NCBI GenBank assembly: GCA_963779755.1
Contig: CAVZZO010000001.1
Location: 2,112,001-2,176,000 of the forward strand
Direction: 5' to 3'
Origin: an uncultured Gemmatimonadales bacterium
GTDB taxonomy: Bacteria > Gemmatimonadota > Gemmatimonadetes > Gemmatimonadales > GWC2-71-9
DNA: 64,000 bases
Each line of letters starts with the position of its first letter. Within the stretch, counting starts at the first letter, position 1. Positions 41,913 through 44,900 of this stretch are shown here, one piece after another. Made by a program: the position numbers.

Positions 41913-44900
41913 CATGTCCAGGTAGAGTCCGGCCTGGGTGCCCTGGGGCAGAATGTTGCGCCCGGTGGCGCTCACCACCCCCGCGGTGACGGTCGGCTCG
42001 GTGTTACCCAGGAGGTAGGCGAAGGGATTGCCGAGCGCCACCACCCACTCGCCGATCATGAGATCGGTACTCCGCCCCAGCACTACCGTGGGCAGGTTGG
42101 TCCGGTCCACCTTCAGCACCGCAATGTCGGTGACCGGGTCGGCCCCCAGGACCTGCGCCGGCAGGTCGGTGCCGTCGTTCAGGGTCACGATCACCTTCTG
42201 GGCCTCGGCCACCACGTGGGTATTGGTGAGGATGATGCCGCCGCGACGGATGATGAACCCGGTGCCGCTGCTCTGGACCATCTGCTCCCGCGGGACGAAG
42301 AAGAAGTCCCAGGGTGAGGGCTGGCTCACCTGCCGGGTCGTAGCGCTGATGGACACGACCGCCGGCGCCACCCGCTGAACGGCATCGACCAGGGCGGTCC
42401 GGCGGGAGCTGTCCACGCCGGCCGAGGCGGCTACCCGCATGGAGACGGTCCCCGCCTCGGAGACGTAGCGCGTACGATCCTGCCCGCTGTCGCGGCAGCC
42501 GGCGAGCCCCAGCGCCAGCAGCGCGACGGCGCGGGCCGATCGTCTCACGCGTCCTCCGAACAGGCGACGTACCATCGATCCGGATACTCCGCGGCGAGGA
42601 AGAAGAGTCCCTGGGGCGGTGCCGGCGGACTGGAGCCGGCGTTGTCGCCACTGGCCAGTACGGTGCGCATGTCGTCCGGCGGACGGCGGCCCAGGCCGAT
42701 ATCGGTCATGGTCCCGACCAGCATGCGCACCATGTGGTGGAGAAAGCGGTCGGCTTCCACCTCGTACCGGGCGCCCGTTCCCCCGGCACGGGCCTCCCAG
42801 GCCGAATGCCGCACCCGGCAGCGGTAATGCGGGCGCGGGCTCCGCACGCTGAAGGGCCGGAAGTCGTGTTCGCCCGGGAGCACCGCCGCCGCCGCCCGCA
42901 TGGCCGCCAGGTCCAGCGGGCGGGCCAAGGCCCATTCCCAGGGCCGCCGGAATGGCGAGCGGCAGGCCGGATCGGTGCCGATCTCGTAGCGGTAGCGTCG
43001 CGCCGTAGCGTGCTTCCGCGCGTGAAACCCCGGGAGCATCTCGTGCACCTGGGCGGCCCAGCAGTCGCCGGGGAGCAGCGCGTTCAGCGCCCGGTGCAGC
43101 TCCGGCACCGTCCAGCGCTCCGGCAGGGCGAAACTCACCGGCAGCCCCAGGGCATGGACCCCGGCATCGGTGCGTCCGGCGGCATGGGCCACCACGCGGC
43201 GCCCCACCAGGCGGGCCAGCACGTTCTCCATTTCCGACTGCACCGAGCGGCCGGCCGGCTGCCGCTGCCAGCCGACAAAGCGGCCCCCGTCGTAGTGGAG
43301 CAGGGCGAGAAACGTCCGGCTCATCGGCGCGAAATCTAGTCCCCCGGCAACCCTTAAAGAAGGACTGAGACGAAAGGACTGAGAGAAAAGTGGACCCACC
43401 TTTCCTCTCAGTCCTTTTTGTCTTTTCTCCGGCCGGGAACTGCCAGGATTGTCGCCAGGACCGTCAGTACTTGCGGATGACTCCGACCACCACGCCCTGG
43501 ATGAGGACGTCCTGCTCCTGGAAGCGCATGGGCTGCATGGCGGTGTTGGCCGGCTGCAGACGGATCCATCCGCCGGTTTCGCGGTAGAACTTCTTGACGG
43601 TGGCTTCGCTGCCATTCACCAGGGCAATGACCATCTCGCCGTTCTCGGCGCTCTGGCGGCCGTTCACCACAACGAAGTCGCCATCCTGGATGTGCTCGTC
43701 GATCATGGATGAGCCCCGGACTTTGAGCGCGTAGTTGGGCCCCCGGCGCGGGAGCAGCTCGTCGGGCACCGGGAGGGTTTCGTCGTGCATGAGCGACTCG
43801 ATAGGCATACCCGCCGCTACGGTGCCCAGCAGCGGGATTTCGGTGGCCCCCGCCTGGCCGCGCGGCGGCAGCAGCTGAATGGCCCGGCTCTCGTTGTGGG
43901 TGCGGTGGATGTAGCCCTTGCGCTCGAGATTGGTCAGGTGCTCGTGCACCGTGGCCAGCGACTGAAAGCTGAAATGTTCGGCGATTTCCTCGAAGCTGGG
44001 CGCGTACTGGTGCCGGGCAATGTACTCGCGCAGGTAGGTGAGGATTTCGCTCTGGCGCCGGGTCAGGGGCATGATGGCATCTCCGCGTTTGGCCGAATAG
44101 ACCCCGAATCAACATACCCGAATGCCTCCCGAAGAGCAAGGCTGTCGGGCCGCCGGGCCGGAAGCCAGAGGGTGGCCGATCCGGTGGATGATATTGCGCA
44201 TGCGGGGCTCCGGGGTAGAATCGAGGCAGGGTCGCCACACCCTGTGCGGCCATTGGGGCTTTCCCGTTACGTTGTAAGGGCAAACCCGAACGGCAGGCGC
44301 TGGGCCGGCCCCCACGTCCAACTTCTCGATCGATCACGGAGCGATTCGTTCTGCGTGCTCTGGTGTGCGGCAGCATCAGGTGTGTCCGGCCGGCCGGCGG
44401 CTCCGCGAGCTGCCGGGGGGTTTCCGCCGCCGGGCGGTCGGAAGACGGGGCCGTGATGCTGATCGAGTGGAGCGGACCGGAGGTGCCGAGGTGACCGAAG
44501 GCGTGGGCGTGCCTCCGGCGGTGGATGGAGCCCTGGTTGAGGCGCTGTTGCAGTCGCTGGTGAAGGCCCTTCGGGCGTTCCAGATGTATCTCCCGAACAA
44601 TCCGATCTACCAGCGGGCGCACCAGAACATCCGGCGGGCCTTCGAGCCGGCCTGGGCGGAGTTGCCGGAACTGGTGCTCATCGTCTCGGAGACCGACTTC
44701 CTCTGGGAAGACAGCGTGGTGTACCACCAGGCCAGCAAGCACGACAGCCTCGCCTGGACGCTCTACAAGGACGGGATGCGGGTGCTCACCTTCTCCCCCG
44801 GGGCGGAGGAGACCGAGGTGGTGCGCTTTCTGGAAGCGGTGCAGCGGGCGCGCATGCTGCCGGCCGAAGCGGATGACGACCTCAACACCCTGCTCTGGGA

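What a model noticed while it worked through the whole genome (the two positions that open the first line are those of the whole stretch)
44093..44134. Gemmatimonadota SOS box: direct repeat TTCGG-N6-TTCGG before lexA, recA and the imuA-imuB-dnaE2 cassette
The LexA operator of Gemmatimonadetes is a direct repeat, TTCGG-N6-TTCGG. Here it stands twice before lexA, once before recA (C1:1925937) and twice before the radical-SAM-imuB-dnaE2 cassette (C1:14196, 14221), giving a very small SOS regulon.
Evidence so far: Genome scan. TTCG-N7-TTCG within 260 nt upstream in 30 of 30 lexA and 27 of 30 recA loci across the class; other spacings 0-8 of 30; background 37 of 3749 genes.
(Added by a program. 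Inside this text positions count along the whole contig: contig position 2,112,001 is position 1 of the stretch shown here. "Call 12" and the like, gene names such as g00115 and contig names such as C1 are that model's own, and its searches are not shown. The text may have been shortened before it was handed on; [...] marks where a part breaks off. The agent that wrote the report below was given it as the finding of a first reader that could run no searches.)

Follow-up and report, generated by a model that had tools for sequence, protein, structure and literature searches.

The report
Gemmatimonadota LexA direct-repeat SOS box
A short repeated DNA word in front of DNA-damage genes is almost certainly the binding site of the SOS repressor LexA in Gemmatimonadota; the same kind of site occurs in several other phyla, and one of its bases tracks a single amino acid of the repressor.

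Summary
The boxes are real: TTCGG-N6-TTCGG stands twice before lexA (window 44093-44108 and 44118-44133, minus strand). The distal box fills the 17-bp spacer between -35 and -10; the proximal one covers the predicted start site. TTCG-N7-TTCG precedes 55 of 55 class lexA, 22 of 26 recA and 21 of 22 Rv2578c/PA0069-like radical-SAM genes (shuffles: about 1 each), in either orientation, but only 1 of 30 uvrA, 1 of 29 recN and 2 of 30 ssb. It is most likely the LexA operator (about 0.93; no binding assay). It is not specific to Gemmatimonadota: the same 11-bp-period repeat sits in lexA promoters of Acidobacteriota, Nitrospinota, Binatota and named Patescibacteria, for which a direct-repeat LexA box was published in 2017 (paper not readable here). 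Base 5 follows LexA recognition-helix residue 45: Glu/Gln goes with TTCGG, Lys with TTCGC, in several separate lineages. Corrections: no imuA was found in this genome; the two cassette boxes face each other and are duplicated twice nearby; dnaE2 here has no box and is separated from imuB by an opposite-strand gene. Verdict: new member of a known kind, with a testable one-residue specificity switch.

The parts
43464..44072 (-). lexA, 202 aa (P0001): winged-helix DNA-binding domain and S24 autopeptidase with the Ala-Gly cleavage site and catalytic Ser and Lys columns; single match in G000
43941..43943 (-). codon of Glu44 of P0001 (equivalent to E. coli LexA Glu45, recognition helix 3), the residue that covaries with base 5 of the half-site
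44118..44133 (-). operator box 1, TTCGG-GAGGCA-TTCGG, filling the spacer between the -35 and -10 hexamers
   Evidence: same geometry in 61 of 66 first boxes
44093..44108 (-). operator box 2, TTCGG-GGTCTA-TTCGG, 25 nt downstream of box 1, over the predicted transcription start
   Evidence: start site inferred, not mapped
44134..44139 (-). predicted -35 hexamer TTGCTC
   Evidence: inferred from conservation (TTG 6 nt before box 1 in 64 of 66 loci; TTGACT in the other classes); not called by the consensus scan
44111..44116 (-). predicted -10 hexamer TATGTT, 17 nt from the -35
   Evidence: TAnnnT at this offset in 62 of 66 loci
44080..44084 (-). ribosome-binding-site-like GGAGA
   Evidence: read from the sequence
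43374..43417 (.). strong hairpin after the lexA stop, probable terminator (lexA then monocistronic; truA follows)
   Evidence: fold of 43345-43440, z = -3.2, 0 of 200 shuffles as stable; not called by the terminator scan

Best explanation
TTCGG-N6-TTCGG is the operator of the LexA encoded next to it. A LexA dimer binds two CCGAA half-sites repeated head to tail one helical turn (11 bp) apart. At lexA, box 1 blocks the -35/-10 spacer and box 2 the start site (autorepression). At recA, the radical-SAM gene and the imuA, imuB and dnaE2 genes one or two boxes overlap the promoter in either orientation. DNA damage activates RecA, LexA cleaves itself, and a small recombination-plus-mutagenesis regulon is derepressed; uvrA, recN and ssb are outside it except sporadically. 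Recognition-helix residue 45 sets the outer base pair: Glu or Gln gives TTCGG (Gemmatimonadetes, one Acidobacteriota order, many Patescibacteria), Lys gives TTCGC (most Acidobacteriota, Nitrospinota, Binatota, other Gemmatimonadota classes). Shown: motif, positions, conservation, orientation independence, covariation, intact LexA catalytic columns. Inferred: binding, repression, damage induction, promoter positions, the direct residue-base contact, the head-to-tail binding mode.
For: 55 of 55 class lexA (53 with two boxes), 22 of 26 recA, 21 of 22 radical-SAM upstream regions, against shuffle means of 0.6-1.3. Only spacing 7 recurs at all three genes; palindromic CGAA-n-TTCG in at most 2 loci at any spacing. 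Reversed boxes at 3 of 22 recA and 9 of 21 radical-SAM promoters fit a repressor site, not a sigma element. In G000 the 12 best matrix hits are all intergenic and include lexA, recA and the cassette. An unbiased pattern search in 14 genomes (230 hits against 39 for the reversed pattern) returned lexA, recA, radical SAM, dnaE2, imuB and imuA repeatedly; 72 of 77 top-scoring sites are intergenic. Locus-level covariation over 217 loci with a strict box: Glu45 119 G, 4 G/T ties, 0 C; Lys45 62 C, 10 ties, 0 G; Gln45 11 G, 2 C/T ties; Glu/Gln with G falls in at least four separate groups of a tree built without helix 3. P0001 Glu44 aligns with E. coli Glu45, listed among the DNA-contacting residues in PMC3091678 (passage).
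Against: No binding, induction or start-site data. The consensus promoter scan found no promoter here. Four of 26 class recA loci lack a box within 300 nt (G027, G049, G080 and a second recA copy of G059; G049 has one 1.2 kb upstream), and 0 of 4 recA loci of the other classes and 0 of 5 sister-phylum recA loci show a strict one. Exceptions to the residue rule: L560 and L570 (Lys45, right half TTCGG), L592 (Glu45, no strict box), low-GC Glu45 loci with TTCGT right halves. 114 of 331 LexA loci had no strict box within 260 nt. Relatives are not independent, a few loci were fetched twice, and the deep branches of the FastTree tree are weak. G000 sites before a PEP-mutase-family gene and before isocitrate lyase have no SOS rationale.
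Confidence: 0.93

Rival explanations
1. The repeat is bound by another damage-responsive regulator (for example a WYL-domain or winged-helix factor) that controls lexA and recA, and LexA binds something else.
For: Direct repeats are typical of winged-helix and OmpR-type factors (general knowledge); box 1 has a fixed place in the promoter; no binding assay.
Against: Base 5 covaries with LexA residue 45 across separate lineages; LexA relatives with a different helix 3 mostly lack the box (L577-L587, L591-L599); no palindrome is conserved at these promoters; direct-repeat binding by LexA is reported for Acidobacterium, Patescibacteria and Balneolaeota (PMC7739468 passage).
Confidence: 0.04
2. The repeat is a promoter element (alternative sigma factor or extended spacer), not a repressor site.
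For: Box 1 sits at one fixed offset between TTG and TAnnnT in 61 of 66 lexA loci.
Against: Box 2 has no such flanks (0 of 61); the box is reversed at 3 recA and 9 radical-SAM promoters; at recA and the cassette of G000 it has a different offset to the hexamers.
Confidence: 0.02
3. Chance matches or inherited sequence without function.
For: The window count and the genome-wide count are not above background.
Against: Half-sites are invariant while the spacer and flanks diverge, across LexA proteins down to about 50% identity and across three unrelated genes.
Confidence: 0.01

Closest known systems
Patescibacteria LexA direct-repeat box (Sanchez-Osuna, Barbe, Erill 2017, Environ Microbiol 19:3465)
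   Same: Cited as a direct-repeat LexA motif in PMC7739468 (passage and reference). Here, lexA promoters of named Patescibacteria carry the same repeat in the same -35/-10 spacer: Ca. Saccharimonadales TTCGG-N6-TTCGG (L630), Woesebacteria/Microgenomates TTCGG-N6-TTCGT (L643), Saccharibacteria-group TTCGT-N6-TTCGC (L672). That the paper notes likeness to Acidobacteria LexA is recalled from its abstract.
   Different: The paper was not held, so its exact consensus was not compared. Gemmatimonadetes lexA has two boxes in 53 of 55 loci and an invariant fifth G; the low-GC loci mostly have one box and vary at base 5.
Acidobacterium capsulatum and alphaproteobacterial LexA box GTTC-N7-GTTC (Mazon et al. 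2006)
   Same: Direct repeat, 11-bp period, shared TTC core, offset by one base; the alphaproteobacterial motif is quoted in PMC8565304, PMC3323433 and PMC9578287 (passages). A. capsulatum LexA is listed as experimentally validated in Table S2 of PMC8565304. That its box is GTTC-N7-GTTC is recalled.
   Different: The leading G is not conserved: both halves are preceded by G in 6 of 108 Gemmatimonadetes sites and 0 of 23 sites from the class of G151 (Terriglobales record), while the trailing CG plus G/C is. The P0001 helix (SLATVHEH) is of the Acidobacteriota type; alphaproteobacterial LexA was not examined here.
Gram-positive box CGAAC-N4-GTTCG and E. coli CTGT-N8-ACAG
   Same: Same half-site register: CCGAA aligns with nCGAAC and with CTGTA; the 16-bp footprint equals that of the E. 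coli box; E. coli also pairs Glu45 with an outer C:G (motifs from PMC9578287 Table 1 and PMC8565304; alignment).
   Different: Those are palindromes; here the left half-site is flipped and palindromic arrangements are not enriched.
LexA-regulated imuA-imuB-dnaE2 mutagenesis cassette and minimal SOS regulons
   Same: Box before imuA-like, imuB-like and dnaE2 genes and a radical-SAM gene; small regulons centred on this cassette are described in PMC3323433, a radical-SAM member in Balneolaeota in PMC7739468, imuA-less variants in PMC6511836 (passages).
   Different: In Gemmatimonadetes the genes are often split, each with its own box; G000 has no detectable imuA, and in 8 of 8 family-f1 loci examined the unit starts with a small Zn-ribbon gene.

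Membership tests
LexA operator (SOS box) | Cognate gene encodes a canonical LexA with DNA-binding domain, Ala-Gly site and Ser/Lys dyad | tested here: met
   PF01726, PF00717; TIGR00498 over cut-off; A86-G88, S121, K159 columns invariant in A1
LexA operator (SOS box) | Dyad with fixed spacing, conserved in the lexA promoter and overlapping it | tested here: met
   55 of 55 class loci; box 1 inside the -35/-10 spacer in 61 of 66
LexA operator (SOS box) | Same motif before core SOS genes (recA, translesion polymerases) | tested here: met
   recA 22 of 26; radical SAM 21 of 22; imuA, imuB, dnaE2 in several of 14 genomes
LexA operator (SOS box) | Specific binding by purified LexA | not testable with these tools
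   needs EMSA, footprint or ChIP
LexA operator (SOS box) | RecA-dependent induction by DNA damage | not testable with these tools
   needs an induction experiment
Acidobacteria/Patescibacteria-type direct-repeat LexA box | Direct repeat with 11-bp period and TTC core | tested here: met
Acidobacteria/Patescibacteria-type direct-repeat LexA box | LexA with the same recognition-helix type as those groups | tested here: met
   S-x-A-T-V-H-[E/K/Q]-H shared with named Acidobacteriota and Patescibacteria proteins
Acidobacteria/Patescibacteria-type direct-repeat LexA box | Identity with the published Patescibacteria consensus | not testable with these tools
   paper not held
Alphaproteobacterial GTTC-N7-GTTC box | Conserved G at the start of both half-sites | tested here: not met
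   6 of 108 Gemmatimonadetes sites, 0 of 23 sites in the class of G151
Palindromic Gram-positive-type box | Inverted half-sites | tested here: not met
   CGAA-n-TTCG in at most 2 loci at any spacing
imuA-imuB-dnaE2 cassette (G000 locus) | imuA present | tested here: not met
   three imuA-like queries hit only recA in G000; genome 97% complete; not found with these queries
imuA-imuB-dnaE2 cassette (G000 locus) | Catalytically degenerate Y-family protein and a second DnaE | tested here: met
   C1:16411-17709 lacks the S-x-D-E motif present in dinB; C1:19972-23223 scores full-length to PRK05672, below its cut-off; another DnaE at C3:940504
imuA-imuB-dnaE2 cassette (G000 locus) | One transcription unit under the box | tested here: inconclusive
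   about 520-nt gap before imuB; opposite-strand gene between imuB and tag-dnaE2; no box before tag or dnaE2

The most novel reading that the evidence does not exclude
One LexA clade spanning Gemmatimonadota, Acidobacteriota, Nitrospinota, Binatota and Patescibacteria shares a single operator family, TTCG-N7-TTCG, whose fifth base is switched by one residue (Glu/Gln45 to G, Lys45 to C) independently several times. The acidobacterial box is then properly TTCGC-N6-TTCGC rather than the alphaproteobacterial GTTC-N7-GTTC. This would give a predictive code for SOS boxes in thousands of uncultured genomes, a natural one-residue test of how LexA motifs evolve, and a reason to revisit the proposed Acidobacteria-to-Alphaproteobacteria lexA transfer. 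An ISNCY transposase and a small Zn-ribbon gene would be new SOS members.
Probability: 0.55. Interest if true: 0.62.

Novelty: new member of a known kind. Interest (0 to 1): 0.46.

Why it matters
Gemmatimonadota are abundant soil bacteria for which no SOS box or regulon turned up in the searchable literature. The finding gives them one, with a small mutagenesis-centred regulon that leaves out excision repair. More widely, how LexA changes its motif, and how a symmetric dimer reads a direct repeat, are open questions; the Glu/Lys45 versus G/C pairing makes the first testable with a single point mutant, and the two-box lexA promoter is a clean substrate for a structure. The interest is capped because direct-repeat LexA boxes of this clade are already published for Acidobacterium and Patescibacteria, and the motif here is probably the same one.

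Tried and rejected
Counting matches in the window or the genome: not above background, so not used as evidence. Consensus promoter and terminator scan: nothing called. RNA runs: no RNA holder listed, no evidence either way. Earlier findings of this scan: none returned. Palindromic reading of the box: rejected. GTTC-N7-GTTC as the consensus: rejected for Gemmatimonadetes and the class of G151. 'Gemmatimonadota-specific': rejected. Spacings 9-12 upstream of lexA (8-25 of 55) arise from half-sites of box 1 and box 2 pairing with each other; they are absent at recA and the radical-SAM gene. uvrA, recN and ssb as conserved members: rejected (1 of 30, 1 of 29, 2 of 30; only the best match per genome examined; second uvrA copies not examined except in G000). 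uvrB, ruvAB, uvrD and radA were not located individually; none of them appeared among recurrent pattern-search targets. Papers not held: Verrucomicrobia LexA 2016, Patescibacteria 2017, Acidobacterium 2006, Thliveris and Mount 1992. No structure or complex prediction was run: the complex tool takes no DNA.

Full report
1. Observation. Window 43464-44072(-) encodes a 202-aa LexA (PF01726 and PF00717; TIGR00498 at 204 bits, cut-off 111), the only match in G000. Upstream on the same strand lie two TTCGG-N6-TTCGG repeats at 44118-44133 and 44093-44108. They are flanked as TTGCTC - box 1 plus one base (17 nt) - TATGTT - 2 nt - box 2, so box 1 fills a sigma-70-type spacer and box 2 covers the expected start. 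Counts alone prove nothing: 41 of 100 window shuffles give two or more matches, and the 18 exact genome matches are within the range of other spacings. But the 12 best hits of a matrix built from other genomes' lexA sites are all intergenic. In my gene set 33 of 3614 genes have TTCG-N7-TTCG on either strand within 260 nt.

2. Conservation. LexA was found in 147 of 151 phylum genomes. I examined 70 loci (the 30 best plus 40 picked for spread; one from an unpublished genome dropped). TTCG-N7-TTCG lies within 300 nt on the sense strand in 29 of 29 family-f1 loci (G000 included), 26 of 26 loci of families f2-f9, and 11 of 14 loci of the other classes; 53 of the 55 class loci have two boxes. In a 30-genome panel the box precedes 22 of 26 class recA loci (19 forward, 3 reversed) and 0 of 4 recA loci of other classes; a radical-SAM homologue was found in 23 of 30 genomes and 21 of its 22 class loci have the box, reversed in 9. 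Dinucleotide shuffles give means of 1.3, 0.6 and 0.6 (maxima 5, 3, 3 of 200 rounds); palindromic arrangements occur in at most 2 loci. First boxes have TTG at -6 and TAnnnT at +17 in 61 of 66 loci, second boxes in 0 of 61. In the tree G000 LexA sits among named Gemmatimonadales and Gemmatimonadaceae records.

3. Regulon. uvrA has the repeat in 1 of 30 genomes (weak), recN in 1 of 29, ssb in 2 of 30 (best match per genome); in G000 uvrA (both copies), recN, ssb, dinB and gyrB score near or below zero. An unbiased search with TTCGK-N4-Y-N-TTCGG in 14 class genomes gave 230 hits against 39 for the reversed pattern, which is not composition-matched; 202 were fetched. Of sites scoring 24 or more, 72 of 77 are intergenic, against 30 of 73 below 18. 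Recurrent targets: lexA, recA, the Rv2578c/PA0069-like radical-SAM gene, dnaE2 (G021, G040, G064, G049), imuB-like genes, imuA-like genes (G016, G069, G049); in two genomes each DUF222-HNH, DinB/YfiT (PF05163), gyrB, a glyoxalase, an ECF sigma factor and Pol IV dinB; and an ISNCY transposase. So the core is small, with sporadic additions. In G000 the boxed unit begins with a small Zn-ribbon ORF (C1:14252-14488), then radical SAM (14485-15894) and a degenerate Y-family protein (16411-17709); an opposite-strand quinone-reductase-like gene separates these from tag and dnaE2, which have no box. Three imuA-like queries hit only recA. The two cassette boxes face each other, and the promoter element is duplicated at C1:9014-9587 (93-96% identity, in pieces) and C1:7564-7626.

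4. Beyond the phylum. A scan of named genomes returned 80 lexA loci (79 analysed). Gemmatimonadota records with helix-3 Glu have TTCGG-N6-TTCGG. Vicinamibacteria, Terriglobales, Acidiferrales, Binatota, Nitrospinota and deltaproteobacterial records with Lys at that position have TTCGC-N6-TTCGC, or TTCGC-N6-TTTGC in many Vicinamibacteria, at the same place in the promoter; so do the other Gemmatimonadota classes and one Gemmatimonadota record with Lys (L228). In the class of G151, 23 of 30 loci, all Lys, have such a box. In G155 (Luteitalea record) a reversed TTCGC box precedes the radical-SAM gene. In the Acidobacteriota order of G215, LexA has Glu (15) or Gln (10) in 25 of 28 loci and all 16 strict boxes are TTCGG-N6-TTCGG. 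Low-GC metagenome loci also carry TTCG-N7-TTCG; three of ten looked up are named Patescibacteria: Ca. Saccharimonadales (L630, TTCGG-N6-TTCGG), Woesebacteria/Microgenomates (L643) and a Saccharibacteria-group cluster (L672). More distant acidobacterial LexA proteins with other helices mostly lack the box.

5. Mechanism. P0001 Glu44 aligns with E. coli Glu45, one of the helix-III DNA-contacting residues listed in PMC3091678 (passage); that Glu45 reads the first base pair of the E. coli operator is recalled from Thliveris and Mount 1992 (not held). Read on the other strand the half-site is CCGAA, which aligns with E. coli CTGTA and Gram-positive nCGAAC; its first C is the base that covaries. Over 331 LexA loci (a few fetched twice), 217 have a strict box: Glu45 gives G in 119 with 4 G/T ties, Lys45 gives C in 62 with 10 ties, Gln45 gives G in 11 with 2 C/T ties. 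All 348 half-sites of 90 Glu45 class loci end in G; outside the class Lys45 half-sites are C 153, T 10, G 5, A 2. On a FastTree tree of 118 sampled rows built without the helix-3 columns, Glu/Gln with G occurs in the main Gemmatimonadetes clade, in the order of G215, in two low-GC clades and in L051/L251 and L232, interleaved with Lys/C groups; deep branches are weak. Exceptions: L560, L570, L592 and TTCGT right halves in some low-GC Glu45 loci. Chemistry fits (Glu accepts from cytosine N4, Lys donates to guanine; established knowledge, contact inferred). The 11-bp period puts both half-sites on one face of the helix; binding head to tail requires one DNA-binding domain to flip on its linker (inference). 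The model: LexA represses by promoter occlusion, activated RecA triggers self-cleavage, and recA plus the mutagenic genes are induced. Binding and induction are not shown.

6. Known systems. Direct-repeat LexA boxes are known: GTTC-N7-GTTC in Alphaproteobacteria (passages of PMC8565304, PMC3323433, PMC9578287) and, per PMC7739468 (passages), in Balneolaeota, with citations to the Acidobacterium capsulatum and Patescibacteria papers. Neither of those two papers was held; their supplements may bear on novelty. Because named Patescibacteria carry the very same repeat here, the published Patescibacteria motif is probably this one. The leading G of the alphaproteobacterial consensus is not conserved (6 of 108 and 0 of 23 sites). 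Small cassette-centred regulons and imuA-less variants are described (passages of PMC3323433 and PMC6511836). Ten searches found no paper giving a Gemmatimonadota LexA box or the residue-45 rule, and the supplement of PMC8565304 has no occurrence of 'gemmatimon' (part of its Table S2 read). The library lacks most subscription journals. PMC13148647 was seen as passages and adds nothing; other listed papers were seen as search listings only.

7. Verdict. A real, very probably functional LexA operator (0.93), new for Gemmatimonadota but a member of a known direct-repeat family. The most interesting addition is the one-residue, one-base covariation across phyla. Interest 0.46.

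Noticed in passing
L001:14252-14488 and 9099-9254 (G000 C1); L112, L123, L135-L138, L140, L141: A small Zn-ribbon gene (CPxC...CxxCGWGRC) lies between the box and the radical-SAM gene in 8 of 8 family-f1 loci examined and in none of the 15 loci of other families. 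No Pfam family; weak match to the C-terminal Zn ribbon of class II ribonucleotide reductase (E 4e-6); nearest Atlas clusters are unnamed.
   Followed up: partly
G000 C1:7564-7626 and C1:9014-9587 (L001): Two partial duplicates of the cassette promoter with the facing box pair, amid IS30-like and IS3-like integrase genes, a Fic-domain gene and a broken type I restriction locus near the contig start; real duplication or assembly artefact not resolved.
   Followed up: partly
L448:1501-1516 (G064; the same 16-mer 8 times) and L499 (G061; 3 times): An ISNCY-family insertion sequence carries TTCGG-ATCATG-TTCGG 34 nt before its transposase start, conserved between two genomes: candidate SOS-controlled transposition.
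   Followed up: partly
L597-L599 (G072, G074, G047): Many order-level relatives have a second LexA-like gene (30-35% identity to the query used) with a different helix 3 and no TTCG-N7-TTCG box; its operator is unknown.
   Followed up: partly
L142, L143, L149 (G009, G012, G002): In the other Gemmatimonadota classes dinB follows lexA directly (in G012 with its own TTCGC box) while recA has no box.
   Followed up: partly
L569, L600-L618: In the order of G215 the lexA promoter often has three TTCGG half-sites in a row (periods about 9-10 and 11), suggesting extended head-to-tail binding.
   Followed up: no
G000 C3:1771166 (L004:5167) and C1:1939483 (L003): Strong intergenic boxes between an unknown 99-aa gene and a PEP-mutase-family gene, and 83 nt before isocitrate lyase; not seen before homologues among the pattern-search targets of the 14 other genomes.
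   Followed up: partly
L416:1555-2181 (G040); L470 (G069); L351, L353, L368 (G142): Boxes before an unclassified 208-aa protein (looked to me like a single-strand annealing protein; no Pfam or NCBIfam hit), before a DUF5131 gene, and inside a repeated non-coding element of G142.
   Followed up: no
window 44494-46191 (+): A HEAT-repeat gene is divergent from lexA; a homologue is divergent from lexA in 6 of the 14 pattern-searched genomes.
   Followed up: no
L204: A record titled Bifidobacteriaceae holds a Vicinamibacteria-type lexA and promoter: likely a mislabelled or contaminated bin.
   Followed up: no
L001:14490-14580, 15890-16400; many sites on C1 and C3: G000 is rich in short tandem and palindromic repeats (GGCGGTAC-like units, ACCGCGAAG... 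elements), some inserted in frame in the radical-SAM gene.
   Followed up: no
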